DNA of 64,000 nucleotides from an uncultured Chloroflexia bacterium (GCA_963754385.1 CAVWGE010000001.1:441633-505632); one strand, 5' to 3'. Counted from the stretch's first letter, positions 22,805 to 44,771 are shown. Notes: a model not told the origin generated them from the letters alone. Translations and numbers: made by a program.

Positions 22805-22853
22805 TCTGTATAAAGTCTGAATTAAAAACAAAAAGGACGAAGGAGCAATAGCA

Positions 22854-23657: not shown

Positions 23658-23714
23658 TAAATCACTGGAAAACCAGGAAGCCTCGATTTTTAATAAACAA
23701 AGAGCGAGGAAAGC

Positions 23715-23861: not shown

Positions 23862-23973
23862 TTAAAGAATCATGTATCGCAAATTGGCTTTCAAGTCATT
23901 TTGGGTGAACTTAGTGATGCCATATTTTGGGATGTTATCTCATGGAGAATAATCTATAAAGGAGGATTAGGAG

Positions 23974-26544: not shown

Positions 26545-26614
26545 TCGGCCTTGAGCACAATGGAACCTCACCTGGTAGGGCTAGTTTTCAGCCCTGCCAG
26601 GTGAGGCATGCGTT

Positions 26615-27472: not shown

Positions 27473-27477
27473 AAAAG

Positions 27478-28485
27478 ATGGGAGAGGCGAACGACAACAC
27501 TGCAAAACGGGCATGGCTGACAGGGCGACTCAATCGCATTGCGTACATTATTATCGGACTGTTCTTTGTAATATTACCTTTATTTATGCCCCACTATCTT
27601 CAAGGTATTATGACCAAAGCCATTATCTTTGCAGTCTTTGCTATGAGCCTAAACCTGCTCATTGGATATGCAGGCCTTTTCTCACTAGGACATGCCGCCT
27701 ACTTTGGTGTAGCAGCTTACACTAGTAGTATACTAACGGTGCGCTATGGTGTTGAGAGCTTCTGGCTGGCTGCCCCAGCTGGCATTTTGATGGCAGTGCT
27801 TGTTGCTGGCGCGTTTGGTTTCATTGCGCTTCGACTATCTGGTGTATACTTCTTACTGATTACTCTTGCTCTTGGTCAATTGCTTTATAGTGTTGCCTTG
27901 AAGTGGCAAACAATGACCGGAGGTACTAATGGCCTTATAAGTGTGGGCTATCCGGATCTGGGCTTGCCATGGATTACAATGAATGACCTGTCTTTTTATT
28001 ACTTGGCTTTTGCCATTCTTGTTATCAGCCTTTTCTTGTTATATCGGTTGATTGAGTCTCCATTTGGAGTTGCTCTACAAGGTATCCGCGAAAGTGAAAC
28101 TCGAATGCGCAGCCTAGGCTATAATACTTGGCTGTACAAATATATCGCCTTTGTTATTGCCGGACTGTTTGCCGGGGTGGCTGGCATACTATTTGGATAT
28201 TATAGTACTGTTCTAGTTCCTACAGATATGGGTGTCCTCACTTCTACTCTGGTATTGCTTATGGTAATAATAGGGGGTAGTCGAGTTTTTTGGGGACCGG
28301 TCACTGGAGCTATATTGATAACATTCATAGTACATTATTCGAGCATTTACACTCCTGAACGCTGGCCTCTAATTCTAGGTTCTCTCTTTGTTTTAGCTGT
28401 TATGTTTCTTCGAGGCGGGATTAGCAAATATCTACTGAAACTATGGAAGAGGTTAGAGTACCGCTATGGAAGCATTAAGAGTTGA
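27478..28485 (+). CDS. Branched-chain-amino-acid-type ABC permease (LivM-like)
   Basis: 335 aa. GYAGLFSLGHAAYFGVAAY motif. Confidence 0.85.
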   Translation: MGEANDNTAKRAWLTGRLNRIAYIIIGLFFVILPLFMPHYLQGIMTKAIIFAVFAMSLNLLIGYAGLFSLGHAAYFGVAAYTSSILTVRYGVESFWLAAPAGILMAVLVAGAFGFIALRLSGVYFLLITLALGQLLYSVALKWQTMTGGTNGLISVGYPDLGLPWITMNDLSFYYLAFAILVISLFLLYRLIESPFGVALQGIRESETRMRSLGYNTWLYKYIAFVIAGLFAGVAGILFGYYSTVLVPTDMGVLTSTLVLLMVIIGGSRVFWGPVTGAILITFIVHYSSIYTPERWPLILGSLFVLAVMFLRGGISKYLLKLWKRLEYRYGSIKS

Positions 28486-29218
28486 AGGTTTATGCAAAAA
28501 CTACGGTGGAGTTCGCGCACTAACAAACATCTGTTTCAGTATTAAAGTTGGAGAACGTCTGGCAATTATTGGACCTAATGGAGCAGGGAAAACAACCCTT
28601 TTTAACATCCTCGATGGTCAGTTAAGTGCTGATGATGGCCAGTTTTCTTTCTTCGGGCAAGACATTAGTTTTCTGCCCACATACGTCCGTACCCGTCTTG
28701 GCCTGGTTCGCTCTTTCCAATTAACGACCCTTTTTCCCAATCTCACAGTTCTTAATAATACTATGCTGGCTATTCACGGTATCTTGCCATCACGTTTTGA
28801 AATGTTTCGCCCAATTATTTCATATAAAGATCTTTACGATAAGGCTCACGAACTGCTTGACTCGATGGACTTATGGCGAAGAAGAGACGAGCTAGTCGAA
28901 GCAATATCTTATGGAGAGCAACGTAAGTTAGAAATTGCTCTATGTCTGGCTGCAAAACCCAAACTATTGCTGCTCGATGAACCCAGTTGTGGGTTAACCA
29001 CTGACGAAAGCAAGGATATTAGCACTCGTATCCGTGACTTGGGAACTGATATTACAGTAATTCTCATCGCTCACGACATAGACTTAGTGTTTGATGTTGC
29101 TGAGCGAATTATTGTCCTCCACCATGGCGAAATCGTAGCCGATGGAACATGTGATGAAATCCAGTGTAACTCATTGGTTAAAGAAATATATATGGGAAGT
29201 GAGGCAACTGTGGAATAA
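28466..29218 (+). CDS. ABC transporter ATP-binding protein (LivG-like)
   Basis: 250 aa. Walker A GPNGAGKTT, signature YGEQRKLEIA, Walker B LLLLDEP. Confidence 0.9.
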   Translation: MEALRVEGLCKNYGGVRALTNICFSIKVGERLAIIGPNGAGKTTLFNILDGQLSADDGQFSFFGQDISFLPTYVRTRLGLVRSFQLTTLFPNLTVLNNTMLAIHGILPSRFEMFRPIISYKDLYDKAHELLDSMDLWRRRDELVEAISYGEQRKLEIALCLAAKPKLLLLDEPSCGLTTDESKDISTRIRDLGTDITVILIAHDIDLVFDVAERIIVLHHGEIVADGTCDEIQCNSLVKEIYMGSEATVE

Positions 29219-29922
29219 TGTTAAAGCTGGTTGATATCCATACTTATTATGGGGAAAGCTACGTCCTTCAGGGTGTTTCACTGGAGGTCAAGGAGGGTTC
29301 TGTAGTAGGTCTCTTGGGACGTAATGGCATGGGTAAAACAACCACAATCAGGTCCATAATGAGCTTCACTCCGCCACGCCGGGGTGCAATATATTTCAAG
29401 GGAGAGAATATCGCTGGAATGCAACCGCACCGGATTGCCCAAATGGGCATTGGTCTAATTCCGCAGGGAAGGCGTATTTTCCCATCGTTGAGTGTTGAAG
29501 AAAACCTTATCATGGCAGCACGCGGAGGAGACAAAATTGGTGCTTGGACATTAGACCGAATGTATTCCCTTTTCCCAATACTCAAGGAACGAGCTAGGTA
29601 CAAGGGCAATCTCCTAAGTGGTGGTGAACAGCAGATGCTGACTATCGGCCGAGCCTTAATGACTAATCCAGAATTGCTTTTGATGGATGAGCCTTCAGAG
29701 GGACTAGCTCCTATAATCGTTCAACAAGTTGGCAGGATTATTAGTCAACTCAAAGAGAGCGGCCTTTCTATTTTATTGGTAGAGCAGAACCTCCCCATGG
29801 TTGTTGGGCTAGCCGACTACGTGTATATTATAAGTAAAGGCGCATTAGTGTACCAGTCTACAGTGGAAGAATTAAGAGATAATGAAGAAGTTAAAGCCAA
29901 ATACCTTGGTGTAACTGGCTGA
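29218..29922 (+). CDS. ABC transporter ATP-binding protein (LivF-like)
   Basis: 234 aa. GRNGMGKTT, LSGGEQQML, LLLMDEPSEGLAP. Confidence 0.9.
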   Translation: MLKLVDIHTYYGESYVLQGVSLEVKEGSVVGLLGRNGMGKTTTIRSIMSFTPPRRGAIYFKGENIAGMQPHRIAQMGIGLIPQGRRIFPSLSVEENLIMAARGGDKIGAWTLDRMYSLFPILKERARYKGNLLSGGEQQMLTIGRALMTNPELLLMDEPSEGLAPIIVQQVGRIISQLKESGLSILLVEQNLPMVVGLADYVYIISKGALVYQSTVEELRDNEEVKAKYLGVTG

Positions 29923-30191: not shown

Positions 30192-31616
30192 ATGGCGGTA
30201 GATTTAAGTGTTGAGATCAAAACTAACAGGGGGTCACTGGTCTTAAGGAATCCTCTCCTCCCAGGCTCTTCGGAGGTAGCAGGGGACGAAATCACTATTA
30301 GAAGGTGCATTGAGAATGGTGTTGGGGGAATCGTAACAAAGTCAGTCGGCCACCTGTCTTCACCCGGTCCGGCCGTAGTCACAAGCAAACCATGGGCATT
30401 TCCTCTTGATAGATTTGGGCGTCAATATAGAGGGGCCTGGTTAATGCAGGCGGGGTATTTTGCGGAGGAAGAAAACTTTGAAAAAATAATTGAGAAAGCT
30501 GTACCCAAATGGTATAAGATATGCCACGATGCGGGAGTACCATTGATAAACAGCATACTCGAACTTGGCTGGGGAATGGAGACTCATGATATAGCAGAAT
30601 TGTGGGCACGAATAGCGAAGATGTTGGGTGAGGCTGGTTCCGATGCTATTGAATTGGATGCATCTTGCCCAGCGTCAAAAGTAGTCTATGGTAAGGGGGA
30701 TCAGCCCATTCTTGCCTCAGAGGAGCTATGGGCAGATGAAAAATTTGCCCGCAGGATTATTAATAGAGTGATGAATGTTACAAGGGTGCCAATTGGAGCA
30801 AAAATGTCTCTCTACCATAACCCGGTGGCTCTCCACGCGAAAGCTTGGGCAGATGAAGGCCTTAACTTTCTTTCCGGCCATAATGTATTGCCATCTGCAG
30901 GCGTGTTTATAGATGTAGAAAGGGAAGAGGTTTATGGTACGCCGGGAGAATCTATGTATGCCGCTGGTCCGACCATGGTACCGTTAAGCCTGAATAGGCT
31001 GTCATATGTTTTAAGAGTAGTTGACATACCTGTAATAGGAAGTGCAGGTATTTTTAAGGCGAGCGATGTAATTCAATATTTGTTGTTGGGATGTACTGCG
31101 GTTCAGGTAACTAGTGCAGCTTATTACAAAGGTCACAAAGTATACAAGGAATTACTTGAGGGCTTAGAGGATTGGATGAAGAGACATGGCTACACAAGGA
31201 TAGACCAATTCCGAGGGAAGCTGCTAGAGGAGGCATCATGTCTCCGGTCTGAGTGGGAAGAGAAGTACGGTTATAAGATGCAGCCTTATGAGAAGGGCAA
31301 GGAATTTAAGTATCTACTTACGGGCGGCAGAAGTCCGTCTCCTGTAGTTCCAAGGTTTGATACGGAGAAATGCACTTTGTGTGGTGCATGCGATGATACA
31401 TGTCTGTATGGAGTAATTAAGCTTGATAAAGAAAGGGAAACATTGAACATAAACGACAACCTTTGTATGGGTTGCGGCATGTGCATTGGGATATGTCCGA
31501 ATAATCCCGGTGCACTTTGGCTAGAAGATAAGAGAACAGGGGAAGTGGTATGGGATGGGGTAGGGATGGTAAAGAGCTTTAAGAAGAAGGAAGTTGGGGG
31601 GTATTCATTGGCTTAG
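30192..31616 (+). CDS. Dihydroorotate/dihydropyrimidine-dehydrogenase-like TIM-barrel flavoprotein fused to a 2x[4Fe-4S] ferredoxin domain
   Basis: 474 aa. LRNPLLPGSS...GGIVTKS, IELDASCP, IPVIGSAGI...LLGCTAVQVTSA (DHOD-family pattern). C-terminal CTLCGACDDTC and CMGCGMCIGICP. Physiological substrate unknown. Confidence 0.65.
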   Translation: MAVDLSVEIKTNRGSLVLRNPLLPGSSEVAGDEITIRRCIENGVGGIVTKSVGHLSSPGPAVVTSKPWAFPLDRFGRQYRGAWLMQAGYFAEEENFEKIIEKAVPKWYKICHDAGVPLINSILELGWGMETHDIAELWARIAKMLGEAGSDAIELDASCPASKVVYGKGDQPILASEELWADEKFARRIINRVMNVTRVPIGAKMSLYHNPVALHAKAWADEGLNFLSGHNVLPSAGVFIDVEREEVYGTPGESMYAAGPTMVPLSLNRLSYVLRVVDIPVIGSAGIFKASDVIQYLLLGCTAVQVTSAAYYKGHKVYKELLEGLEDWMKRHGYTRIDQFRGKLLEEASCLRSEWEEKYGYKMQPYEKGKEFKYLLTGGRSPSPVVPRFDTEKCTLCGACDDTCLYGVIKLDKERETLNINDNLCMGCGMCIGICPNNPGALWLEDKRTGEVVWDGVGMVKSFKKKEVGGYSLA

Positions 31617-33357: not shown

Positions 33358-33430
33358 TCGGGGTGAGAGGATTTGAACCTCCGACCTCATGGTCCCAAAC
33401 CATGCGCGCTAGCCACTGCGCTACACCCCG
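33358..33430 (-). tRNA. tRNA-Pro (anticodon TGG), CCA not encoded
   Basis: Hand-folded on the minus strand: CGGGGTG-TA-GCGC-AGTGGCTA-GCGC-G-CATGG-TTTGGGA-CCATG-AGGTC-GGAGG-TTCAAAT-CCTCT-CACCCCG-A. Confidence 0.9.
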
Positions 33431-33498
33431 CAGCGAAAAGTATAGTTTAACTAGTTTGATATAGTCAAGGAATTAGTGCAGGCTTTTAATTGCTATGG

Positions 33499-34218
33499 CT
33501 ATTTGCAGGTGGGGCAGATATCGAAGAAATCATCAGGTAGATTCCACTTTTTTCTGATGTATTCTAATTGCTTTTCCGGTGCCCAATAATTCCCGCAGAC
33601 TTTACACTTCTTGAGCTTGAATTCTACTTTCCAGTTGTATATTATTCTGGTGTCTCCTTTGTCCTCCATTTTTATGGCGCCGGTTGGGCATATGTAGTAA
33701 CAAGAACCACAGCCAATGCAAGCTGTGGCTGGCTCAAGGAAAGGAGAAGCAGGCTCTTTGGTTATGCCTCGATTGACCAAGCTAATAGCGCTTACACCAA
33801 CAACTTGCTCGCAGGCTCTGACACACAAGCCGCACACAATACAGTCATTGTCTTCTAGATATTCAGGTTTGAATGATGGCTGCTCAATACCCATCTGCAA
33901 AGCTAATTCTTTTATCACCTTGTTCTTAGAGCACCGTGCCAGAAGCAACTCCAATAGCATCTTGCGATTACTTATAACCCTGGGCGAGCCGGTTTTAACC
34001 TCCAAACCTTCTTCTACCGGGTAAAGGCAAGAGGTGACTATTTTCGTCCGCTTCCCCTTTGAAATCTCCACGATACACAGCCTGCAGGCGCCGTATGGCT
34101 CTATAGCTTCATGGTGGCACAAGGTGGGTATATCAATGCCGTTTTCTCTGGCTACCTGAAGTATCGTCTGCCCTTCTTCAGCCTTAAGTTCACGGCCATC
34201 AATATTGAGAGTTATCAT
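33499..34218 (-). CDS. Fe-S subunit: [2Fe-2S] ferredoxin domain plus 2x[4Fe-4S], like the N-terminus of NuoG/HydA, with no catalytic domain
   Basis: 239 aa. MITLNIDGRELKAEEGQTILQ...IPTLCHH...GACRLCIVE, CIVCGLCVRAC, CIGCGSCYYICP. C-terminal CKVCG...CPTCK ribbon. No H-cluster or molybdopterin domain. Confidence 0.8.
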   Translation of the reverse strand: MITLNIDGRELKAEEGQTILQVARENGIDIPTLCHHEAIEPYGACRLCIVEISKGKRTKIVTSCLYPVEEGLEVKTGSPRVISNRKMLLELLLARCSKNKVIKELALQMGIEQPSFKPEYLEDNDCIVCGLCVRACEQVVGVSAISLVNRGITKEPASPFLEPATACIGCGSCYYICPTGAIKMEDKGDTRIIYNWKVEFKLKKCKVCGNYWAPEKQLEYIRKKWNLPDDFFDICPTCK

Positions 34219-34219
34219 C

Positions 34220-36097
34220 TTATTCTTTACCTACAGCTCCTAATTTACAGACGTCGTAACAGGCTCCACACTTGATGCACTTCGACTCGTCTAGAACAAC
34301 CGGTTTCTTTTTACCCATAGAGGTTATAGCTTCTTGGGGGCAAGCTTTAACGCAGAGCCCACAGCCAGGGCATTTTTCTTCTATTATGTAGTAATGAATT
34401 AAAGCCTTACATACTCCGGCTGGGCATCTCTTTTCTTTTATGTGTGCTTCATACTCGTCTTTGAAATAGCGAATAGTAGTTAAAACGGGATTTGGTGCTG
34501 TGCTGCCCAGGGCACAGAGAGAACTATCTATTAGGGTGGCTGAAAGCCGCTCTAGAAGGTCGATGTCTTCTTCGGTGCCCTTCCCTTCGGTGATATCATC
34601 CAGAATTTGCCGCATTCGCTTTACTCCCTCTCGACATGGCACACACTTACCACAAGACTCTTCTTCGAGGAAGGTGAGGAAGTATTTGGCGATATCTACC
34701 ATGCATGTAGTTTCATCCATGACAATCATGCCGCCTGAGCCCATCATCGAGCCAGCTTTAGTCAACTCGTCGAAGTCTACCGGCAAATCAAGTAAACTTT
34801 CAGGAAGACAGCCACCCGAAGGGCCACCGGTTTGTACCGCCTTGAATTTCTTACCTTCCCGGATACCGCCACCGATATCATAGATGATTTCCCTTAAGGT
34901 TATCCCCATTGGTACTTCTACCAAGCCCGTATTGTTGATCTTGCCTACCAGGGAGAATATCTTTGTTCCTTTACTGCCGTCGGTACCTAAGGTGCGGTAC
35001 CAATCAGCGCCTTTGTTTATTATTAGGGGCACATTAGACCATGTTTCTACATTGTTTAAGTCACTGGGCCTGTCCCACAGGCCTTTTTCTACCGTGTGAA
35101 CATATTTAGCTCTTGGTTCTCCGACCTTGCCTTCGAGCGATGCCATCAGTGCCGTGGACTCACCGCAAACGAAAGCACCTCCACCTCTATTTATGCGGAC
35201 ATTAAAATCGAAACCTGAGCCTAAAATGTTATCTCCGAGCAGCCCTAACTGCTGTGCTTGGTTTAGAGCAATTGTTATGTTAGCCAACGCTAGAGGATAT
35301 TCATTACGAACATAAACATATCCTTGGTGAGCTCCGATGGCATAAGCACCAATGATCAAGCCTTCGAGGACACTGTGTGGGTTGCCTGAAAGTAAACCCT
35401 CGTTAGCGTAAGCTCCGGGGTCACCCTCATCAGCATTTACAATGACGTACTTTATATCTCCTGGAGCATGACGGCAGGATTCCCATTTTATCCCCGTAGG
35501 GAAGCCCGCACCACCTCGCCCCCTTAAGCCAGAGCGTTTGATTTCCTCTATTATCTGCTCCGGAGCCATCTCGAGGAGGACTTTAGCCAGAGCTGTGTAG
35601 CCACCGATGGCAATATAATCCTCTATCTTAATTGGGTTTATTTCGGTGTTATTGCCGAGGATGTTCCGGTTTTGCTTCCGGTAAAAGGGAATCTCATTTC
35701 TATGTATGACTTTGTTGCCGGTTATAGGGTCGGTATGAAGCAACCTGTCAATAATGTTGCCTTTACTGATTGTCTCACTTATTATCTCAGGTACGTCTTC
35801 CAGCTTTATTTGTTGGTAGAAAATATCACCGGGTTGAATAACTGCGATCGGTCCTTTCTCACAAAGTCCGTGACAACCTGTGATTCTCAGCTCCGCCTTC
35901 TTTTGCAGGCCTTGTTTTGAAAGTTCTTGCTTAAATGCTTCTATGATCTGGGCACAGCCGTAGGGATGGCAAGCTGTGCCATTGCAGACAGCAATCAACG
36001 GTTTGCCTGGTTCTGTTGCATTTATTAGCTCTTTTTGTAGAGCCTCCAGGTCTTGTTTTGAACGGAGCTTATCTGGCATTTCGTTTGCTGCACTCAC
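34220..36097 (-). CDS. NuoF/HydB-like NAD(H)- and FMN-binding flavoprotein with extra Fe-S domains
   Basis: 625 aa. N-terminal thioredoxin-like 2Fe-2S (CNGTACH...GCHGLCEKGP), GLRGRGGAGFPTG, ESCGKCVPCREG, and a C-terminal 2x[4Fe-4S] (CPGCGLCVKACP, CIKCGACYDVC). Confidence 0.85.
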   Translation of the reverse strand: MSAANEMPDKLRSKQDLEALQKELINATEPGKPLIAVCNGTACHPYGCAQIIEAFKQELSKQGLQKKAELRITGCHGLCEKGPIAVIQPGDIFYQQIKLEDVPEIISETISKGNIIDRLLHTDPITGNKVIHRNEIPFYRKQNRNILGNNTEINPIKIEDYIAIGGYTALAKVLLEMAPEQIIEEIKRSGLRGRGGAGFPTGIKWESCRHAPGDIKYVIVNADEGDPGAYANEGLLSGNPHSVLEGLIIGAYAIGAHQGYVYVRNEYPLALANITIALNQAQQLGLLGDNILGSGFDFNVRINRGGGAFVCGESTALMASLEGKVGEPRAKYVHTVEKGLWDRPSDLNNVETWSNVPLIINKGADWYRTLGTDGSKGTKIFSLVGKINNTGLVEVPMGITLREIIYDIGGGIREGKKFKAVQTGGPSGGCLPESLLDLPVDFDELTKAGSMMGSGGMIVMDETTCMVDIAKYFLTFLEEESCGKCVPCREGVKRMRQILDDITEGKGTEEDIDLLERLSATLIDSSLCALGSTAPNPVLTTIRYFKDEYEAHIKEKRCPAGVCKALIHYYIIEEKCPGCGLCVKACPQEAITSMGKKKPVVLDESKCIKCGACYDVCKLGAVGKE

Positions 36098-36543
36098 TCA
36101 AATTTGGTTAATAAACTATCTACTTTATCTGTGCTCATATGCCCGAAGTATTCCCCATCAACTTTCGCAGCCGGTCCCACGGCACAACATCCCATGCAGT
36201 TGACTGTCTCCAGCGTGAATTTCCGGTCTTTAGTGGTTTCTCCACGCTTTATGGACAAACATCGTTCGATAGTTTCCAAAACCCTGATAGCACCTCTAAC
36301 ATGGCAGGCAGTGCCCAGGCAGACGTTGATTAGATGTTTCCCCCTGGGTTCGAGGCTGAAGGCTCTGAAAAACGTAGCCACGTCGTACACCCGACTTGCG
36401 GGCATAGCCATGTTTTCGCTTACCTGAATCAGAGCTTCCTTGGGGAGGTAATAGTATTCAGCCTGTATATCCTGAAGTATGGAAACTAGCTGTCCTTTGT
36501 CCCCATTGTATTTGTTTATAATGGCGGCAACTTTTTTATCCAT
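36094..36543 (-). CDS. NuoE/HydC-like thioredoxin-fold [2Fe-2S] subunit
   Basis: 149 aa. LPKEAL..., VCLGTACHVRG, VNCMGCCAVGP. Confidence 0.85.
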   Translation of the reverse strand: MDKKVAAIINKYNGDKGQLVSILQDIQAEYYYLPKEALIQVSENMAMPASRVYDVATFFRAFSLEPRGKHLINVCLGTACHVRGAIRVLETIERCLSIKRGETTKDRKFTLETVNCMGCCAVGPAAKVDGEYFGHMSTDKVDSLLTKFE

Positions 36544-36545
36544 TG

Positions 36546-37475
36546 TCAGTAATTATTGCGGGTAGCTTTTTCCTTGAGTTTGGAATATTCATCGGTCACC
36601 CTCGCCTGAATCTGGGCTACTATCTCTTTGGTAAGGTGCCGGAACCTTCCTTGTAGCTTGAAGTAATCCTCTACGGGTCGTAGCTGGGGAAAATCTAGAT
36701 TCAGAGTGTATTTACCCTGTTCTATTTCATACAGAGGGAAAATGCCCGTTTGCACAGCTAGTCGCCCTGCCCTTATCGCTAAATCTGGAGGGAGTCTCCA
36801 GCCAGTAGGACAAACCGACAATACATGAATGTACGATGGCCCTTCGACTTTCATGGCTTTACTGACTTTGTTCATAAGGTCGAAGGGATAACTATGGCAG
36901 GCAGTAGCCACATAGGGTATGTCATGAGCGGCAGCAATAGCTGGCATGTTCTTCTTCCAGCTAGTCTGTCCAATGCTGACCTTGCCTGCAGGTGAGGTGG
37001 TGGTGGAAGCGCCAAAAGGTGTAGCACTTGAACGCTGAATGCCAGTATTCATGTAGGCTTCATTATCAAAGCAGATGTATATAAAATCATGGCCCCTTTC
37101 CAGAGCGCCAGATAGGGCTTGGAGGCCGATATCGGCAGTGCCGCCATCTCCGGCCATGGCCACAGCTTTTGTTTTTCTGGAATATTTCCCTTTGCGACTC
37201 AGAACTTTTATTCCGGCTTCTATTCCTGAAGCCACAGCAGCGGTATTCTCAAAGAGAGTGTGAATCCAGGGGACCTCCCAGGAGGTATAAGGGAGTTGGG
37301 AGGAGACTATTTCCATGCAGCCGGTGGCATTGGCGATGATTACATTTCTACCTAAAGCTTTACACACAAGCCTCACAGCCAGGGCTTCACCACAGCCCAT
37401 ACAAGCTCGATGTCCCGGAGCAAAATATTCCTTAGTTGTCACTAGCCGTGGGACATATATAGCTAAGTTTTCCAC
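36546..37475 (-). CDS. porB: 2-oxoacid:ferredoxin oxidoreductase, beta (TPP-binding) subunit, pyruvate type
   Basis: 309 aa. CMGCGE..., [12 protein letters not shown] motif, [10 protein letters not shown]. Substrate specificity not provable from sequence alone. Confidence 0.8.
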
Positions 37476-38650
37476 TATTCCCTTACTCCAATCATTTCAA
37501 TCTCGCCGAGTTTCCCCTTCTTTGCCTTGTCTAATCCACGATGAATCAGTTCCTCGAAGGCTTCGGCAGAAATCTCTCTACCGCCCAGGCTGCCTACAAA
37601 GCTGACCACTTTTGGCCTAGCTCTTAATGGATAGAGTGCTGCCTGGATTTCAGAACAGACTGGAGCTGAGCCACCAAAAGACATGGCGCGGTCGAGGACG
37701 ATGAGTACCTTAGCTTTGCTTACAGCCTTGCGGAGTTCGTCAAATGGGAAAGGACGCCATAAACGCAATCTTATCAGGCCGACATTTTGACCTTCCGCTT
37801 GCATCTTATCTATAGTCATCATTGCTGTTTCGCTGAAGCTCCCCATACACATTAATAAGGTGTCGGCACCTTCTGTTTTGTAGCTTTCTACCGGTGAATA
37901 GTGGCGACCTGAAATCTCACCGAACTCCTGCCAGGTCTGAAGAATCACTTTTTGGGAAGCTTTTAAGGCGACTTCTTGGGCCTTTTTAGCCTCGGTGTAG
38001 ATGAAGGGAGGGCCGAAGGCACCCATGGTTACTGGCTTGTCTGGGTTGAGGGGATAAGGGTGGCAATATTCAGGAAGAAATTTATCTACCACAGCTTGCT
38101 CTAGAAATTCGACAGATTCGATTGTGTGTGAAATGTAAAATCCATCGATGTGGACTATTGCCGGGAGCATGACGCTTGAGTCTTCAGCAATACGGAAAGC
38201 ACACAATGTCAAATCAAAGGCTTGTTGCGCGTTTTCTGCGAATATCTGTATCCAGCCACAATCGCGGATTGCCATTGCATCAGAATGGTCTGTCCAGATG
38301 CTTAAGGGAGCAGAAAGTGCCCTGTTAGCCACCGTCATAACTATCGGCAGGCGCAGCGATGCGGCAACATAGAGTACCTCGTGCATGAGTTCCAACCCCT
38401 GACTGGCGGTAGCGGTGTAAGTCCTGGCACCTACGGCTGAAGTGCCCAGACAAGCGCTCATAGCTGAATGCTCTGATTCTACTGGTATATATTCGGCATC
38501 TAACTCACCGTTAGCTACAAACTCAGCTAGTCGCTCGACAATGTGAGTCTGAGGTGTAATGGGATAGGCAGCTACAGCTTCGATGCGGGCCAGTTTGGCA
38601 GCCTCAGCTATGGCAAAGGAACCTTCTATACCTATTCGTTTTTCTGCCAT
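37475..38650 (-). CDS. porA: 2-oxoacid:ferredoxin oxidoreductase, alpha subunit
   Basis: 391 aa. [25 protein letters not shown]. Confidence 0.8.
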
Positions 38651-38652
38651 CT

Positions 38653-39540
38653 TTATCCTTCCTCAACCATCTTTATAGCTTCTGTCCAGCACTCGCGGGC
38701 GCAAATGCCGCATCCCTTGCAATAAAACAAGTTGGCGTCAAAGTAACCGTCTTCTCTCTCTCTAATGCATCCTTCTGGGCAAAAGAGATAACAAATTCCA
38801 CACTTGATGCATTTCTCATGATTCCATACAGGGCGCTCTGATCTCCAGTCCCCGGTGTTATATTGCTTAGCGCTTCCCGCTTCAATAACAACACAGCCAG
38901 GCAGCAGTTCTCGCCATGAGGGCAATACTTCTGCTTGAAATACCTGGCGTGGTTTCTGAACGATACCGCTGGGCTCGGCAATTTCAGTTTCTTCATAGGC
39001 TCTGTGACAAGCATCGATATTACCCTTAGCTCTGGCACCAAAACGCTCCTTTAGATGCTCTGTCAGAGATTCTAGCTCGATTATACCTGTAGCCTTTACC
39101 AGCGCTCCAAGCATAGTTGTATTGACAATTGGAACCCCGATCATCTCACGGGCAATTGAAGTTGCATTGACTACTGCCAGTCTCCATGGGCCGCTTAATT
39201 CTGATTTTATGTCAACTAATGCCTTCGGCGTATTTATTACCAGCGTACCATCTTTCTTAAGACCTGAGGTGACGTCGGTAATAGAAAGTAAGCCTGGGTC
39301 CAGGATTACAACAATATCTGGATTTGTTACTGCGACTCTGGCTCGGATCGGGCTGACATTGCTTATACGGTTGAAAACAAGCACCGGTGCTCCCCTTCTT
39401 TCCGGACCAAAGCTGGGGAACGCCTGAGCAAATTTCCCTTCCTCGATAGCTGCTGTTGCCAGCAATTCAGCTGATGTTACTGCTCCTTGCCCACCTCTAC
39501 CGTGCCAGCGAATCTCGATTATATCGTCTTTTACTTTCAA
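38653..39540 (-). CDS. 2-oxoacid:ferredoxin oxidoreductase, fused gamma-delta subunit
   Basis: 295 aa. Gamma part HGRGGQGAVT. The delta part carries two ferredoxin motifs, CIKCGICYLFCPEGCI and CKGCGICARECWTEAI. Confidence 0.8.
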   Translation of the reverse strand: MKVKDDIIEIRWHGRGGQGAVTSAELLATAAIEEGKFAQAFPSFGPERRGAPVLVFNRISNVSPIRARVAVTNPDIVVILDPGLLSITDVTSGLKKDGTLVINTPKALVDIKSELSGPWRLAVVNATSIAREMIGVPIVNTTMLGALVKATGIIELESLTEHLKERFGARAKGNIDACHRAYEETEIAEPSGIVQKPRQVFQAEVLPSWRELLPGCVVIEAGSAKQYNTGDWRSERPVWNHEKCIKCGICYLFCPEGCIREREDGYFDANLFYCKGCGICARECWTEAIKMVEEG

Positions 39541-39560
39541 CTTGTTATATTTCCTCGAAG

Positions 39561-39632
39561 CGCCCCTGGAGGGACTTGAACCCTCGCACCCGGCTCCGGA
39601 GGCCGGTGCTCTATCCCCTGAGCTACAGGGGC
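39561..39632 (-). tRNA. tRNA-Arg (anticodon CCG), CCA not encoded
   Basis: Minus strand: GCCCCTG-TA-GCTC-AGGGGATA-GAGC-A-CCGGC-CTCCGGA-GCCGG-GTGCG-AGGGT...TTCAAGT...CAGGGGC-G. Lies 20 nt upstream of the POR operon start. Confidence 0.9.
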
Positions 39633-39692
39633 TTTGGTAATTTTACCTATTTTTGTTTTATTTGACAAACTTACCGAAGGCAAACTAAAGGG

Positions 39693-40967
39693 TCATTCAT
39701 CTTCCATGACCGGTTTTGATTGCTTCTTGAAAAATGGCTTGAGTATTGTCGGCGTTATGAGTGTTGTAACCACACTGACCGCAACTGCGGCACCAAATAG
39801 GTCTCGACTTATAGCTCCAGCCAAGAGTCCTGCGCCAGCAATTATCAAACCTACCTCTCCTCTCGGCACCATCCCTATACCGACTATCATGCTCTCGGTA
39901 TGGGACATTTTGCCAGCAAATCGAGCCGGGATATAACAACCAATAGCCTTCCCCAGCACAGCCACCACTATCAGGACAATTGCTATTATAGCTCCACTCC
40001 AGAGCAGTCGCATGTCGACTTGCATGCCCAGGTAACAGAAGAAAAAAGGCGCCAGAAAGAGCATTATCGGTCTGGTTTTATCCAAAATGTCCTCTCTTTC
40101 ACCAGTGGCTGCGAACATAAGTCCGGCTACATAAGCGCCGACCACGGGATGCAATCCAACCAACGTAAGCAGGTAAGCTATGATAAAGCCGATGATAAGT
40201 GCAAAAATGGGTATTGTCCCCGATTTTCTGAATGGATTTAGAAGAAACCGCGATATATATTTGTTGAACCTGACGCCGATAATTAGTAGAGCAAACCAAA
40301 CAGCGAAGCCGATGGCGCCGATTTTTAGGGCATCTAGACAAACATGGGCTACATTTATCTCTCCGCCAAATTTTGCTGCAGAGCCTATGCCAACGACAAT
40401 TGATAGAATAACTATGCCGATTATATCGTCAATCACGGCGCCGACCAGTATGATAGTCCCTGCCTGTGTCTGGAGCTTGCCCATCTCCATCAGTATCCTC
40501 ACTGTAAGTCCAATGCTGGTAGCTGTCAGAACAGCTCCCATGAACAGCCAGCCGGCTATTCCCATTTCAGGAGCCAGCCACATCGTGATGAAATATCCGA
40601 AGACAAAGGGAAGGATAACTCCACCCACAGCTACCAGAGTGCCGCTTTTTCCCTGTTTTAAAAAAGCCCCGACATTAGTTTCGACACCAGCAACAAAAAG
40701 CAGTACAACGACGGCGATTTCTGAGACAACCTCCATTACGTTGAACTCGTGGAGCCCGAAAGCGCCTTGAATAGTGGCAAAATGCAGGATTATCGGGTCG
40801 TGAATAAGGCCTCCTAAGGCGAATGGGGAAATAATAATTCCAGCCACCAGTTCACCTAAAACCGGTGGCTGTTTCAGATAGCGCTCGAATAACTCGCCGC
40901 CTATCCTGGCTGCCAGCAGAATCAAGCCAAAGGTCAGTATGAATTTAAAATATATCTCGATTTCCAT
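39693..40967 (-). CDS. Monovalent cation:proton antiporter (CPA2/Kef-NapA type Na+/H+ exchanger family)
   Basis: 424 aa, about 12 predicted TM segments. ARIGGELFERYLKQPPVLGELVAGIIISP N-terminus is typical of the family. Confidence 0.8.
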   Translation of the reverse strand: MEIEIYFKFILTFGLILLAARIGGELFERYLKQPPVLGELVAGIIISPFALGGLIHDPIILHFATIQGAFGLHEFNVMEVVSEIAVVVLLFVAGVETNVGAFLKQGKSGTLVAVGGVILPFVFGYFITMWLAPEMGIAGWLFMGAVLTATSIGLTVRILMEMGKLQTQAGTIILVGAVIDDIIGIVILSIVVGIGSAAKFGGEINVAHVCLDALKIGAIGFAVWFALLIIGVRFNKYISRFLLNPFRKSGTIPIFALIIGFIIAYLLTLVGLHPVVGAYVAGLMFAATGEREDILDKTRPIMLFLAPFFFCYLGMQVDMRLLWSGAIIAIVLIVVAVLGKAIGCYIPARFAGKMSHTESMIVGIGMVPRGEVGLIIAGAGLLAGAISRDLFGAAVAVSVVTTLITPTILKPFFKKQSKPVMEDE

Positions 40968-41217: not shown

Positions 41218-42369
41218 CTAGGAGAGCGGAGCTATGCCCATACCTGCCATAATTGCCAGCATTACTGCTGCTGCCATAACCGAACCTATCTGACCACCGG
41301 TATTAGCACCTACTGCATGAAATAACAAAAAGGTCCTTGGATTTGCTTTTTGACCTTCTTTTTGTACTACTCTTGCCGACATTGGGAAAGCAGAGGTGCC
41401 AGCCGCACCGAGTAAAGGATTTATTTTCCCCTTGGTTATTACGTACATTAACTTACCAAGTAAAACTCCAGCCACGGTATCAAGCGAAATTGCTATCAAT
41501 CCCAGAATAAACACAAGTATAGTTTGCCAGCGAAGGAAATTGCCACCTATCATGGAGGCGCCGATACAAAGTCCCAAGAGAAGGGTTACTATGTTGGACA
41601 TGGCGTTTTCAGAAACATCGGTGAGCCTTTTAACTACACCAGATTCCCTGAGAAAATTTCCTAGCATCAGCATACCCATTAATGGTGCCCCCATCGGTGC
41701 TATAAGTATAGTGAGTATACCAGTCACTACCGGGAAAAGAATCTTAACCCTTTGCGAAACCTTTTTCTCCCCATATTCCATTACTACCCTACGTTCTTTC
41801 TTGGTGGTTAAGGCTCTCATAATGGGAGGCTGAATGATCGGCACTAGCGACATATAGGAGTAAGCCGCAACGGATATTGCAGGCAATAATTCACGTGCAT
41901 ACTTGGTGGCCACATATATAGCGGTAGGACCATCGCAGGCTCCTATTATTGATATCGAAACAGCTTCCTGGGGAACGAATCCTAGAGAGAGGGCTAAAAG
42001 AAGGGTCAGGAATATACCAAATTGCCCAGCCGCCCCGAAGAGGAGAACGGTAGGATTTGCCAGCATGGGACCGAAATCGATCATGGCGCCAAGACCGAGG
42101 AAAAGGAGAACCGGGAATAACTCAGTAAGTATGCCAGATGTATAGAGTAGGTTTATTACACCACCCTCATCCTGTGCTGATAATCCCGCCAGAGGAAGAT
42201 TCCCCAGGATTATACCAAAACCAATAGGCAGTAACAGTAGAGGTTCAAAGCCTTTGGCGACGCCAAGGTAGAGAAGAGCCAAGCCCAGCAGGGTCATTAT
42301 GCCAGTTTGCCAAGTTAGGTTAGCAAAACCCTGTACCAAGCTAGACAGGGCTGAAACTAAAACATCCAT
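41218..42369 (-). CDS. Na+-translocating decarboxylase, beta subunit (OadB/GcdB/MmdB family)
   Basis: 383 aa polytopic protein. LLLPIGFGIILGNLP, LFLGLGAMIDFGPMLANP, GAAGTSAFPMSARV. Confidence 0.85.
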   Translation of the reverse strand: MDVLVSALSSLVQGFANLTWQTGIMTLLGLALLYLGVAKGFEPLLLLPIGFGIILGNLPLAGLSAQDEGGVINLLYTSGILTELFPVLLFLGLGAMIDFGPMLANPTVLLFGAAGQFGIFLTLLLALSLGFVPQEAVSISIIGACDGPTAIYVATKYARELLPAISVAAYSYMSLVPIIQPPIMRALTTKKERRVVMEYGEKKVSQRVKILFPVVTGILTILIAPMGAPLMGMLMLGNFLRESGVVKRLTDVSENAMSNIVTLLLGLCIGASMIGGNFLRWQTILVFILGLIAISLDTVAGVLLGKLMYVITKGKINPLLGAAGTSAFPMSARVVQKEGQKANPRTFLLFHAVGANTGGQIGSVMAAAVMLAIMAGMGIAPLS

Positions 42370-44589: not shown

Positions 44590-44676
44590 GGAGAGGTGTC
44601 CGAGTGGTTTATGGTGCCGCTCTCGAAAAGCGGTGGGCGATGAGCCTCGTGGGTTCGAATCCCACCCTCTCCGCCA
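44590..44676 (+). tRNA. tRNA-Ser (anticodon CGA), CCA encoded
   Basis: GGAGAGG acceptor, anticodon stem-loop CCGCT-CTCGAAA-AGCGG, long variable arm, T-arm GTGGG-TTCGAAT-CCCAC, 3' GCCA. Confidence 0.9.
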
Positions 44677-44682
44677 GGCTCT

Positions 44683-44771
<89 letters not shown>

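What the first reader, a model, noticed from the sequence alone, without database searches (positions are those of the whole stretch)
33499..39540. 2-oxoacid:ferredoxin oxidoreductase in a tightly coupled operon with a NuoE/NuoF/NuoG-N-like (HydABC-core-like) flavoprotein module
Six genes on one strand have 0-3 nt gaps or overlaps. They are the fused POR gamma-delta subunit, alpha, beta, a NuoE-like 2Fe-2S protein, and a 625-aa NuoF/HydB-like NAD(H)/FMN subunit with extra N- and C-terminal Fe-S domains. The sixth is a 239-aa Fe-S protein equivalent to the N-terminus of NuoG/HydA, with no hydrogenase or formate dehydrogenase catalytic domain. So the usual catalytic partner of the HydBC-type module appears to be replaced by the POR. 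This predicts a complex that links 2-oxoacid oxidation, or reductive carboxylation, directly to NAD(H), possibly by flavin-based electron bifurcation or confurcation with ferredoxin. The operon is flanked by tRNA-Arg (20 nt upstream) and tRNA-Pro (downstream).
Basis: partly seen in the sequence, partly recalled or inferred. Interest (0 to 1): 0.65.

Follow-up and report, generated by a model that had tools for sequence, protein, structure and literature searches.

The report
Pyruvate oxidoreductase wired to bifurcating flavoprotein
This six-gene operon joins a pyruvate:ferredoxin oxidoreductase to a HydABC-like (Bfu) NAD(H)/ferredoxin flavoprotein module; the gene-cluster type was already predicted in 2022 as "Por-Bfu" from Dehalococcoides, so this is a real new member of a known class that nobody has yet tested biochemically.

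Summary
Window 33499-39540 (minus strand) holds six tightly packed genes: fused porCD, porA, porB, then NuoE-like, NuoF/HydB-like and a 239-aa NuoG-N-like Fe-S protein. tRNA-Arg(CCG) and tRNA-Pro(UGG) flank them.

Schut et al. 2022 (PMC9304861) described this gene cluster as "Por-Bfu", a predicted Type 2 member of the BfuABC electron-bifurcating family. Their example is the Dehalococcoides mccartyi operon "sandwiched between two tRNA genes".

Sequence-level criteria I tested here were all met:
- All sequence-defined Bfu cofactor ligands are present in BfuB and BfuC.
- BfuA is WorA-like (PDB 9MQX_A, E 7e-52). It lacks the His-ligated cluster and has a C-terminal Zn finger without the WorA adaptor helix.

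The window comes from an uncultured sediment/wetland Dehalococcoidia. The same cluster occurs in Dehalococcoidia, Desulfobacterota, SAR324 and UBP1.

- The tRNA flanks persist even where the internal gene order is permuted.
- In Actinomycetota, an Nfn-type BfuA is fused in frame to PorB, with bfuCB lying between porA and porB. This argues for one physical complex.

The most likely function is reversible pyruvate + CoA oxidation, or pyruvate synthesis, obligatorily coupled to both NAD(H) and ferredoxin. No biochemical or transcript data exist for this organism.

The parts
39640..39668 (-). Promoter-like site (TTGTCA-17-TAAAAT, 10/12), about 8 nt upstream of tRNA-Arg
   Evidence: This is a consensus match only. 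The scan as a whole found no more sites than shuffled sequence (10 found against 9.3 expected), so it is suggestive by position only.
39560..39632 (-). tRNA-Arg (anticodon CCG), same strand, 19 nt upstream of porCD. No terminator-like site lies between them.
   Evidence: The same tRNA flank is conserved in Dehalococcoidia loci L001, L002, L003, L020 and L012.
38653..39540 (-). porCD: fused gamma (res ~7-186) and delta (res ~214-294; 8 Cys for 2x[4Fe-4S] at 244/247/250/254 and 274/277/280/284) subunit of a POR-type 2-oxoacid:ferredoxin oxidoreductase
   Evidence: TIGR02175 at 217 bits, cutoff 81; TIGR02179 at 96 bits, cutoff 60; gamma matches 9bt4_E (2e-48), delta matches 9bt4_G (6e-24), and the fused layout matches oxalate oxidoreductase delta 5c4i_B. 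Cys positions.
37475..38650 (-). porA: alpha subunit (POR_N and PFOR_II domains)
   Evidence: Best NCBIfam hit is PorA_Arch at 490 bits, below its 550 equivalog cutoff.
36546..37475 (-). porB: TPP-binding beta subunit; candidate proximal [4Fe-4S] ligands among Cys25/28/53/222
   Evidence: PorB equivalog NF008819 at 426 bits, above the 405 cutoff. Cys positions; assignment of these Cys as cluster ligands is inferred.
36094..36543 (-). bfuC (NuoE/HydC-like): thioredoxin-like [2Fe-2S] cluster C1; candidate ligands Cys75/80/116/120
   Evidence: PF01257, 1e-48; the best PDB matches are bifurcating HydC chains (7t2r_C 1e-44, 8a6t_C 5e-43, 9mqx_C 1.5e-37).
34220..36097 (-). bfuB (NuoF/HydB-like): NAD(H)/FMN subunit. 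Ligand sets: B5 [2Fe-2S] C38/43/75/79; FMN loop 193-202; B1 C482/485/488/528; B2 (or Zn) site C465/T503/H552/C558/C563; B3/B4 C576/579/582/586 and C607/610/613/617. The probable true start is the ATG at 36079.
   Evidence: PDB matches: 7t2r_B 4.5e-243, 9mqx_B 2.4e-234, 8a6t_B 2.5e-226. Non-bifurcating NuoF chains match only residues ~155-557.
33499..34218 (-). bfuA (WorA-type, Type 2): A1 [2Fe-2S] C34/45/48/64; no His-ligated A3; A2/A4 [4Fe-4S] C126/129/132/136 and C167/170/173/177; Zn finger C205/208/235/238. The protein ends 1 aa after the last Cys.
   Evidence: no PF10588 hit; 9mqx_A at 6.8e-52, residues 3-239 aligned to 6-234 of 247..
33358..33430 (-). tRNA-Pro (anticodon UGG), 68 nt downstream of bfuA, with its own promoter-like site at 33439-33468
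   Evidence: The flank is conserved in L001, L002, L003, L020 and L012.

Best explanation
The six genes encode one multi-subunit 'Por-Bfu' enzyme of an uncultured Dehalococcoidia bacterium.

Proposed electron path (inferred):
- The POR part (PorA, PorB and fused PorCD) decarboxylates pyruvate + CoA at TPP. In the reverse direction it carboxylates acetyl-CoA.
- Electrons leave through the PorB [4Fe-4S] and the two [4Fe-4S] clusters of the delta domain.
- They are handed not to free ferredoxin but to the WorA-type BfuA (A4, then A2, then the A1 [2Fe-2S]).
- From there they reach the BfuBC core (B1, FMN, C1, B5, and B2/B3/B4).

The core couples the third substrate obligatorily to both NAD(H) (hydride at FMN) and ferredoxin (via the C-terminal B3/B4 clusters). 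The overall reaction is: 2 pyruvate + 2 CoA + NAD+ + 2 Fd(ox) <-> 2 acetyl-CoA + 2 CO2 + NADH + 2 Fd(red).

In acetate- and CO2-assimilating, energy-limited Dehalococcoidia the physiologically important direction is probably pyruvate synthesis. It would be driven half by NADH and half by reduced ferredoxin.

What is shown: gene content, cofactor ligands, synteny and family membership. What is inferred: the physical complex, the electron path, the stoichiometry, the direction, and pyruvate as the substrate.
For: (1) Domain architecture and tight coupling of the six genes.

(2) BfuB has all features that separate bifurcating BfuB from non-bifurcating NuoF/HoxF.
- It has the N-terminal [2Fe-2S] and the C-terminal 2x[4Fe-4S].
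- It has the C465/T503/H552/C558/C563 site, which maps by a constant offset of 27 onto C438/C476/H525/C531/C536 of A. mobile HydB.
- The pattern is the same as in the D. mccartyi Por-BfuB row of Schut's supplement.
- The best PDB hits for all three Bfu subunits are experimentally bifurcating enzymes.

(3) BfuA is full-length homologous to WorA of the structurally and biochemically characterised bifurcating WorABCSL. In that enzyme electrons enter via A4-A2-A1-B1.

(4) POR + BfuCBA synteny holds in L001-L003, L005-L008, L013, L014, L020, L030, L043, L061, L081 and L082. These span Dehalococcoidia, Desulfobacterota/Syntrophaceae, SAR324 and UBP1.

(5) A conserved BfuA signature is specific to POR-linked loci: 234-243 aa, a Zn finger, and only 1-5 residues after the last Cys. 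Wor-linked and VorB-linked BfuAs have 16-23 residues there. This agrees with PMC12318220.

(6) Rosetta-stone evidence comes from Actinomycetota loci L058, L083 and L084.
- bfuC and bfuB lie between porA and porB.
- An Nfn/Stn-type BfuA is fused in frame to PorB.
- The fusion recurs in more than 100 sequence clusters.

(7) Schut et al. report similar expression of all Por-Bfu genes in D. mccartyi 195.

(8) No alternative catalytic partner (hydrogenase, FDH, nuo) is present in the 64-kb window.
Against: - No Por-Bfu has been purified or assayed. Bifurcation is extrapolated from Hyd-, Nfn- and Wor-Bfu.
- Pyruvate/acetyl-CoA + CO2 (E0' about -500 mV, Table 1) is as low as ferredoxin, so bifurcation is not thermodynamically required in the oxidative direction.
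- No transcript data could be found for this organism, and promoter and terminator scans are at chance level.
- The POR delta domain is the normal docking site for free ferredoxin, so a diffusible link is possible.
- BfuA lacks the C-terminal helix that physically couples WorA to its partner, so the docking mode is unknown.
- PorA and PorC score below the POR equivalog cutoffs, so the 2-oxoacid specificity is not settled.
- The nature of the B2 site is, from my own recollection and not checked here, interpreted as a Zn site in other HydABC structures.
Confidence: 0.6

Rival explanations
1. These are two separate enzymes that are merely co-expressed. One is an ordinary ferredoxin-dependent POR. 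The other is a stand-alone BfuABC that acts as a soluble ferredoxin:NAD+ oxidoreductase. They are linked only through diffusible ferredoxin.
For: The POR has a complete standard subunit set, including the ferredoxin-docking delta domain. BfuA has no catalytic domain and lacks the WorA adaptor helix. No physical evidence for a complex exists.
Against: - Gene spacing is tight (1-4 nt) and synteny is conserved across several phyla.
- The BfuA subtype is specific to POR-linked loci.
- In Actinomycetota the bfuCB genes are sandwiched between por genes and BfuA is fused in frame to PorB.
- No characterised BfuABC works without a third-substrate module.
Confidence: 0.2
2. It is a single complex that does not bifurcate. 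It would be an NAD+-dependent pyruvate dehydrogenase-like OFOR in which all electrons go to NAD+. The functional analogue is the NAD+-linked phenylglyoxylate oxidoreductase PadEFGHI.
For: Pyruvate oxidation can reduce NAD+ exergonically without any coupling (potentials). There is an NCBIfam precedent for an NADH-dependent OFOR: the Pad subunits are detectable hits.
Against: BfuB keeps the full set of extra clusters (B2-B5) that non-bifurcating NuoF/HoxF/FdsB homologues lack. The closest characterised relative, WorABCSL, needs both NAD+ and Fd even though its donor is also very low-potential.
Confidence: 0.1
3. BfuCBA is the missing NADH-input (NuoEFG-like) module of the 11-subunit complex I of Dehalococcoidia. 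On this view it only sits next to POR by accident.
For: [quoted passage not shown]
Against: - BfuA is only 239 aa. It lacks the His-ligated cluster and the large C-terminal NuoG domain.
- No nuo genes occur in the window.
- The same POR-Bfu cluster occurs in unrelated phyla.
- The true Nuo-Bfu clusters described by Schut carry the Bfu genes inside the nuo operon and are of Type 3.
Confidence: 0.03
4. The architecture and mechanism are the same, but the substrate is another 2-oxoacid (2-oxoisovalerate, 2-oxobutyrate, an aryl-pyruvate, etc.) rather than pyruvate.
For: PorA (490 bits against a 550 cutoff) and PorC (213 against 270) fall below the POR equivalog cutoffs. VOR, OOR and Pad models also hit strongly. 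A VorB-type OFOR is also found fused to BfuCBA operons elsewhere.
Against: PorB passes the PorB equivalog cutoff. POR models are the top hit for all subunits. The best solved relatives are POR chains.
Confidence: 0.12

Closest known systems
Por-Bfu of Dehalococcoides mccartyi 195 (predicted; Schut et al. 2022, PMC9304861)
   Same: - POR genes plus BfuC, BfuB and a short BfuA in one cluster.
- Flanked by two tRNA genes.
- Chloroflexi host.
- Same B1/B2 ligand pattern in BfuB.
- BfuA has a Zn finger but no C-terminal helix.
   Different: - Here the gamma and delta subunits are fused, giving six genes instead of the seven (A-G) described.
- The host is an uncultured sediment/wetland lineage, not a cultured organohalide respirer.
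- I could not fetch the D. mccartyi locus for a direct comparison.
WorABCSL, the electron-bifurcating tungsten aldehyde oxidoreductase of Acetomicrobium mobile (PDB 9MQX; PMC12318220)
   Same: - It is a Type 2 Bfu.
- BfuA is homologous over its full length (6.8e-52) with A1, A2, A4 and a Zn finger but no A3.
- BfuB (2.4e-234) and BfuC (1.5e-37) are close matches.
- Its third substrate is also very low-potential, and it has been shown to need both NAD+ and Fd.
   Different: - The third-substrate module is WorSL (tungstopterin plus polyferredoxin nanowire), not a TPP enzyme.
- WorA has a C-terminal adaptor helix (13 more residues) that is absent here.
Bifurcating HydABC [FeFe]- and HydABCSL [NiFe]-hydrogenases (PDB 7P5H, 8A6T, 7Q4V, 7T2R)
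   Same: The BfuBC core, with all cofactor ligands, is conserved. 7t2r_B is the best PDB hit for BfuB (4.5e-243).
   Different: There is no H-cluster domain and no NiFe subunits. BfuA is truncated and lacks the His-ligated A3 cluster and A5.
Four-subunit POR (PorABDG) of archaea and Thermotogae (PDB 9BT4, 2RAA), and oxalate oxidoreductase (5C4I)
   Same: The alpha, beta, gamma and delta domains and the TPP and Fe-S sites are shared. The fused gamma-delta layout resembles the OOR delta subunit.
   Different: Those enzymes use free ferredoxin and have no NAD(H) module.
NADH-dependent phenylglyoxylate dehydrogenase PadEFGHI (NCBIfam NF045762-NF045766)
   Same: It is an OFOR that is linked to NAD(H) through an extra flavoprotein subunit.
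   Different: From my own recollection, not checked here, the Pad flavoprotein is GltD-like (FAD) rather than NuoF-like (FMN). The Pad models score far below cutoff here. The Actinomycetota fused variant (L058, L083, L084) resembles Pad more closely than the window operon does.
NuoEFG N-module of respiratory complex I
   Same: NuoE, NuoF and the N-terminus of NuoG are homologous to BfuC, BfuB and BfuA.
   Different: BfuB has extra N- and C-terminal cluster domains. BfuA lacks most of NuoG. There is no nuo context.

Membership tests
BfuABC electron-bifurcating family (Schut et al. 2022) | BfuB carries the FMN/NADH domain (IPR011538), SLBB (IPR019554), the NuoF 4Fe-4S domain (IPR019575) and a ferredoxin-type 4Fe-4S domain (IPR017896) | tested here: met
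   Pfam equivalents PF01512, PF10531, PF10589 and Fer4 families all hit.
BfuABC electron-bifurcating family (Schut et al. 2022) | BfuB keeps clusters B2-B5, which non-bifurcating homologues lack, including the conserved His of the B2 site | tested here: met
   - B5: C38/43/75/79.
- B2 site: C465/T503/H552/C558/C563.
- B3/B4: eight Cys between 576 and 617.

All are invariant in 10 homologues.
BfuABC electron-bifurcating family (Schut et al. 2022) | BfuC is NuoE-like (IPR002023) with the C1 [2Fe-2S] cluster | tested here: met
   PF01257 at 1e-48. Cys75/80/116/120 are present. It aligns over its full length with 7t2r_C and 8a6t_C.
BfuABC electron-bifurcating family (Schut et al. 2022) | Catalyses tightly coupled reduction or oxidation of NAD(H) and ferredoxin with a third substrate | not testable with these tools
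   This needs an enzyme assay. No Por-Bfu has been characterised.
Type 2 Bfu / WorA-type BfuA | BfuA has A1 [2Fe-2S] plus A2 and A4 [4Fe-4S], but lacks A3 (His-ligated) and A5 | tested here: met
   - There is no PF10588 hit.
- The H...C..C.....C motif is absent; the sequence there is LLARCSKNK.
- Two CxxCxxCxxxC motifs are present.
- The best PDB match is WorA.
Por-Bfu subclass | POR subunit genes are contiguous with bfuCBA on one strand | tested here: met
   The arrangement is conserved in at least 13 other genomes.
Por-Bfu subclass | [quoted passage not shown] | tested here: met
   C205/208/235/238 are present and the protein ends at K239. WorA extends 13 residues further.
Por-Bfu subclass | All genes are co-transcribed | tested here: inconclusive
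   The junctions of 1-4 nt leave no room for internal promoters or terminators. However, no RNA reads for this organism were found. The only published support is for D. mccartyi.
Pyruvate:ferredoxin oxidoreductase (four-subunit POR type of the OFOR superfamily) | Alpha (POR_N, PFOR_II), beta (TPP-binding), gamma (PF01558) and delta (2x[4Fe-4S]) domains are all present | tested here: met
Pyruvate:ferredoxin oxidoreductase (four-subunit POR type of the OFOR superfamily) | Pyruvate specificity (equivalog-level assignment) | tested here: inconclusive
   PorB passes its equivalog cutoff (426 against 405). PorA (490 against 550) and PorC (213 against 270) do not.
[FeFe]-hydrogenase HydA / formate dehydrogenase alpha | An H-cluster domain or a molybdopterin domain is present in the NuoG-like subunit or in a neighbouring gene | tested here: not met
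   BfuA is 239 aa with only Fe-S and Zn motifs. No such genes occur in the window.
Complex I N-module (NuoEFG) | A full-length NuoG and a nuoA-N operon context | tested here: not met
   BfuA covers only the N-terminal ~95 residues of NuoG plus a ferredoxin domain. No nuo genes occur in the 64 kb.

The most novel reading that the evidence does not exclude
Por-Bfu may be a true single complex that acts as a reversible NADH + ferredoxin-confurcating pyruvate synthase. It would halve the reduced-ferredoxin cost of fixing CO2 into pyruvate in energy-starved anaerobes such as the wetland and sediment Dehalococcoidia sampled here.

Coupling of TPP-dependent 2-oxoacid oxidoreductases to the Bfu core may also be a broader, repeatedly evolved design. 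Three forms appear here:
- POR-type with a tail-less Zn-finger BfuA.
- VorB-type with a tailed BfuA.
- An Actinomycetota form in which an Nfn-type BfuA is fused to PorB, possibly adding NADP(H) as a fourth substrate.
Probability: 0.45. Interest if true: 0.6.

Novelty: new member of a known kind. Interest (0 to 1): 0.35.

Why it matters
Suppose Por-Bfu works as predicted. The central acetyl-CoA/pyruvate node of many strict anaerobes (organohalide respirers, syntrophs, subsurface Chloroflexota) would then be tied to both the NAD(H) and ferredoxin pools by electron bifurcation. That changes estimates of the energy cost of carbon assimilation and of redox balancing in these organisms.

It would also be the first TPP enzyme shown to feed a Bfu core.

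For this scan, the point is that the feature is real and correctly read, but it was already published as a prediction. Its remaining value is as a well-defined, still untested target. Fused and permuted variants elsewhere strengthen the case for a physical complex.

Tried and rejected
- Transcript evidence. The RNA-run search found only three small Nanopore metatranscriptomes from a related study. They hold none of the sampled 31-mers, and only one low-identity fragment could be laid on the region. There is no evidence either way.
- Promoter and terminator scan. The counts equal shuffled expectation. Only the positions of two promoter-like sites, just upstream of each tRNA, are suggestive.
- I first thought that a full-length match to the 239-aa BfuA, including the Cys tail, marks OFOR-linked loci only. 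This is rejected. L055 and L066 are Wor-Bfu loci (AFOR genes) with the same BfuA type. What is POR-specific is the missing tail after the Zn finger.
- NJ tree of 81 BfuB sequences. POR-linked BfuBs fall in one region of the tree but are interleaved with other types. The tree is star-like and unsupported, so no claim of monophyly or of multiple origins is made.
- Literature search by D. mccartyi locus tags (DET0724-DET0730) returned nothing in the searchable library.
- Complex I N-module idea. It gets no support from context or from BfuA architecture.
- I did not run structure prediction. The full-length sequence alignments to solved Bfu subunits already settle fold-level membership.

Full report
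**1. What is in the sequence**

On the minus strand of window 33499-39540 there are six open reading frames of 295, 391, 309, 149, 625 and 239 aa. The junctions, in gene order, are a 2-nt gap, a 1-nt overlap, a 2-nt gap, a 4-nt overlap and a 1-nt gap.

ARAGORN places tRNA-Arg(CCG) at 39560-39632, 19 nt upstream of the first gene and on the same strand. It places tRNA-Pro(UGG) at 33358-33430, 68 nt downstream of the last gene.

Pfam and NCBIfam identify the genes as follows.
- Gene 1 is a POR gamma domain fused to a delta-type 2x[4Fe-4S] domain.
- Gene 2 is POR alpha.
- Gene 3 is the TPP-binding beta subunit. It passes the PorB equivalog cutoff (426 against 405 bits).
- Gene 4 is a NuoE-like thioredoxin-fold [2Fe-2S] protein.
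- Gene 5 is a NuoF-like FMN/NADH subunit with an extra N-terminal [2Fe-2S] domain and a C-terminal 2x[4Fe-4S] domain.
- Gene 6 is a [2Fe-2S] + 2x[4Fe-4S] protein that aligns to the N-terminal ~190 residues of HoxU, HydA and NuoG. It has no hydrogenase or molybdopterin domain.

I add three details.
- Nearly all of the 120 closest BfuB homologues listed are 617-619 aa, mostly 619. Translation therefore probably starts at the ATG at 36079 rather than the GTG at 36097.
- The sixth protein lacks the His-ligated [4Fe-4S] of NuoG and HydA. There is no PF10588 hit, and the motif position reads LLARCSKNK.
- The sixth protein ends in a CxxC-X26-CxxC motif (Cys205/208/235/238).

**2. Where it comes from**

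The window has 46.3% G+C. The closest BfuB and BfuA proteins (93-97% identity) come from unnamed metagenome contigs and from MAGs labelled Chloroflexi or Dehalococcoidia, for example "Chloroflexi bacterium RBG_13_50_10". DNA runs that hold the locus are freshwater-sediment, wetland, peat and soil metagenomes.

The rest of the window is ordinary chromosomal housekeeping. It includes HflX, DapF, MiaA, TpiA, PGM, PGK, EPSP synthase, NadB, an IS110 transposase, CoA-transferases, a branched-chain amino-acid ABC transporter and LexA. It also includes a Na+/H+ exchanger, an OAD-beta subunit, TerC, Usp, DprA, TopA and EF-P. There is no hydrogenase, formate dehydrogenase or nuo gene, and no paralogue of the six genes, anywhere in the 64 kb.

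**3. It is already described as a class**

Schut et al. 2022 (PMC9304861) surveyed 1558 HydB homologues and defined the BfuABC family. Among the non-hydrogenase members they list "Por-Bfu":
- It comprises 12 sequences in BfuB clades 35, 44 and 45, from Chloroflexi and Proteobacteria.
- It is uncharacterised and classed as Type 2.
[quoted passage not shown] - The authors propose that it makes pyruvate from NADH and ferredoxin under energy limitation.

A 2025 structure paper on WorABCSL (PMC12318220) adds that the WorA homologue of Por-Bfu has the Zn-finger motif but lacks the C-terminal helix. A full-text search for "Por-Bfu" finds only these two papers. The class is therefore known, but nobody has reported biochemistry.

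**4. Membership tests**

The family definition requires specific domains in BfuB, BfuC and BfuA, and requires BfuB to retain clusters B2-B5, which non-bifurcating NuoF/HoxF/FdsB homologues lack. The window proteins meet all of it.

*BfuB.* The alignment to A. mobile HydB (7T2R_B, E 4.5e-243) has a constant offset of 27 over residues 35-544. The published B2 ligands C438/C476/H525/C531/C536 therefore map to C465/T503/H552/C558/C563. The Thr at the second position is the variant found in about two-thirds of BfuBs. It matches the D. mccartyi Por-BfuB row in Schut's supplement. The other ligand sets are all present and invariant among ten homologues of 74-93% identity:
- B5: C38/43/75/79
- B1: C482/485/488/528
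- B3/B4: C576/579/582/586 and C607/610/613/617

Non-bifurcating NuoF chains match only residues ~155-557, with E about 1e-108.

*BfuC.* It aligns over its full length with the HydC chains of bifurcating enzymes (7t2r_C 1e-44).

*BfuA.* Its best solved relative is WorA of the bifurcating tungsten aldehyde oxidoreductase (9MQX_A, E 6.8e-52). Residues 3-239 align to 6-234 of 247, through both CxxC pairs of the Zn finger. WorA has A1, A2, A4 and the Zn finger but no A3. It passes electrons along A4-A2-A1-B1.

**5. Comparative genomics done here**

A scan of one genome per GTDB species with a BfuB profile returned the 80 closest loci. I searched them with the six window proteins by tblastn.

*POR-linked loci.*
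- Thirteen loci show POR (50-87% identity) directly upstream of bfuC-bfuB-bfuA: L001, L002, L003, L005, L006 (contig end), L007, L008, L013, L014, L020, L030, L043 and L061.
- Their hosts are Dehalococcoidia, Desulfobacterota/Syntrophaceae, SAR324, UBP1 and unclassified MAGs.
- Two long contigs of closer relatives show the same six genes with precomputed Pfam calls (L081, a 1.76-Mb Chloroflexota chromosome, and L082).
- They also share neighbours with the window: the Na+/H+ exchanger in L081 and LexA in L082.

*BfuA signature.*
- All POR-linked BfuAs are 234-243 aa, lack the His-cluster motif, have the Zn finger, and end 1-5 residues after the last Cys.
- Wor-linked BfuAs (L055, L066) have 16-19 residues there.
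- VorB-type-OFOR-linked BfuAs have 20-23 residues there.

*Gamma-delta fusion.*
- The fusion seen in the window occurs in some lineages: L001, L005, L007, L012, L020, L081 and L082.
- It is absent in others: L003, L008, L013, L014, L030, L043 and L061.
- Its layout resembles the delta subunit of oxalate oxidoreductase.

*tRNA flanks.*
- The tRNA-Arg(CCG)/tRNA-Pro(UGG) flanks are conserved in the Dehalococcoidia loci L001, L002, L003 and L020.
- They are also conserved in L012, where the internal order is inverted to bfuCBA-porCDAB.

**6. Evidence on the key open question: one complex or two enzymes**

The tight spacing and multi-phylum synteny favour a complex but do not prove it. A stronger argument emerged from locus L058, an uncultured Thermoleophilia.
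- The gene order there is porC-porD-porA-bfuC-bfuB, followed by one ~1057-aa reading frame.
- The Pfam order in that frame is Fer2_4 / Fer4_20 / Pyr_redox_2 / Fer4_Nqo3 + 2x Fer4 / TPP_enzyme_C.
- The fusion is not an assembly accident. More than 100 distinct 90%-identity clusters at 60-95% identity cover it end to end.
- Two further loci, on contigs of 3.56 Mb and 0.59 Mb, show the same operon (L083, L084).
- Residues 9-697 match the BfuA subunits of three solved complexes whose B and C chains also match the window's BfuB and BfuC: 9BOV_A, 8OH5_C and 9N5U_A. Chain 9N5U_A is named NfnA; from my own recollection the other two are also Nfn/Stn-type transhydrogenases.
- Residues 748-1030 match POR beta (9BT4_C, 1.4e-77).

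So in another phylum the bfuCB genes lie between por genes, and a BfuA is translationally fused to PorB. Schut et al. used the same "sandwiched genes" logic for Codh-Bfu. The fusion adds a Rosetta-stone argument that OFOR and Bfu modules work as one complex. It is indirect evidence for the window operon, whose BfuA is of a different (WorA) type.

**7. Mechanism proposed (inferred)**

- Pyruvate + CoA is oxidised at TPP in PorAB.
- Electrons pass the PorB [4Fe-4S] and the two delta-domain clusters of PorCD.
- They then pass to BfuA (A4, A2, A1), to B1 and FMN of BfuB, and into the BfuBC core.
- At the core, NAD+ takes a hydride at FMN, and ferredoxin is reduced via C1/B2/B3/B4. This follows the models for NiFe-, Nfn- and Wor-Bfu.
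- The overall reaction is 2 pyruvate + 2 CoA + NAD+ + 2 Fd(ox) <-> 2 acetyl-CoA + 2 CO2 + NADH + 2 Fd(red).

With the potentials tabulated by Schut (NAD about -280 mV, Fd about -500 mV, pyruvate couple -500 mV standard), the oxidative direction needs no coupling. This is the same puzzle as for Wor-Bfu, which nevertheless requires both acceptors in vitro.

The following is my own estimate, not a tool result. In the reductive direction the mean donor potential is about -390 mV, roughly 110 mV short of the standard pyruvate couple. That gap closes if [pyruvate][CoA]/([acetyl-CoA][CO2]) is held near 1e-4 to 1e-3, for example with micromolar pyruvate and millimolar CO2. A confurcating pyruvate synthase would then run near equilibrium and use half as much reduced ferredoxin as a classical POR. 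This fits the anabolic role suggested for Dehalococcoides.

**8. Rivals**

- Two co-expressed enzymes linked by free ferredoxin (confidence 0.2).
- A non-bifurcating NAD+-dependent POR complex (0.1).
- A complex I N-module (0.03).
- A different 2-oxoacid as substrate (0.12; not exclusive of the main model).

The evidence for and against each is in the Rival explanations section of this report.

**9. What failed or stayed open**

- No transcript data for this organism could be found.
- Promoter and terminator scans are at chance level.
- The BfuB NJ tree is unresolved.
- The D. mccartyi locus itself could not be fetched.

**10. Verdict**

The window adds a new member with a fused gamma-delta subunit, from an uncultured wetland/sediment Dehalococcoidia. 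Interest is moderate to low for discovery (0.35). The class itself remains an attractive, untested biochemical target.

Noticed in passing
L058:1703-9808; L083:2161-10174; L084:2084-10192 (Actinomycetota/Thermoleophilia MAG contigs): The operon is porC-porD-porA-bfuC-bfuB followed by a ~1057-aa protein. That protein is an Nfn/Stn-type BfuA ([2Fe-2S] plus a GltD-like FAD/NAD(P) domain plus Fe-S) fused in frame to a PorB TPP subunit. The fusion recurs in more than 100 sequence clusters. It suggests a POR-Bfu variant with a possible fourth substrate, NADP(H). I found no description of it in the papers read.
   Followed up: partly
L080:2287-8088; also L038, L056, L059: A second, distant OFOR type sits directly upstream of bfuCBA. 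Its gene order is delta-alpha-beta-gamma, and its alpha subunit passes the NCBIfam VorB subfamily cutoff (511 against 399 bits). The hosts include Thermoanaerobaculia (L056, L059) and unclassified MAGs (L038, L080). In L038, L059 and L080 the BfuA keeps a 20-23-residue tail after the Zn finger, unlike POR-linked BfuAs; in L056 the second CxxC of the finger is missing.
   Followed up: partly
L012:1868-8836 (uncultured Dehalococcoidia): The same tRNA-Arg(CCG) and tRNA-Pro(UGG) flanks are present, but the internal order is inverted (bfuC-bfuB-bfuA-porCD-porA-porB). The BfuA is only 202 aa and has no Zn finger. The tRNA-bounded slot is thus more conserved than the gene order inside it.
   Followed up: partly
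window 39541-39668 (-): A promoter-like site (TTGTCA-17-TAAAAT) lies ~8 nt upstream of tRNA-Arg. Only 19 nt, containing a GAGGA ribosome-binding site, separate the tRNA from the porCD TTG start, and there is no terminator. The tRNA may be the 5' leader of the operon transcript. tRNA-Pro has its own promoter-like site at 33439-33468.
   Followed up: no
window 41218-42369 (-) and 39693-40967 (-): A lone Na+-translocating oxaloacetate-decarboxylase beta-type subunit (PF03977, 8e-142) has no alpha or gamma subunit gene beside it. It lies next to a Na+/H+ exchanger immediately upstream of the operon. The exchanger neighbour is conserved in L081.
   Followed up: no
window 30192-31616 (+): A 474-aa dihydroorotate/dihydropyrimidine-dehydrogenase-like (PreA-like) protein with a C-terminal 2x[4Fe-4S] domain. 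Its function is unclear.
   Followed up: no
window 17055-18134 (+): An IS110-family transposase (DEDD_Tnp_IS110 plus Transposase_20) lies between nadB and a pair of CoA-transferase genes.
   Followed up: no
window 18603-29922: A gene group of two CoA-transferase subunits, a LuxR-type regulator, a chalcone-isomerase-like protein, a beta-keto acid cleavage enzyme (BKACE) and a five-gene branched-chain amino-acid-type ABC transporter. It may be a catabolic island.
   Followed up: no
window 44590-44771 (+); L002:1604-1785: A tandem tRNA-Ser(CGA)/tRNA-Ser(GGA) pair lies about 5 kb from the operon. It is conserved at the equivalent position in L002.
   Followed up: no
L081:9854-15860 and L084:10875-13036: Next to the POR-Bfu clusters of a Chloroflexota chromosome and of an Actinomycetota contig lie genes for trimethylamine-type methyltransferases (MTTB), a corrinoid protein and, in L081 only, a RACo-like activase.
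   Followed up: no
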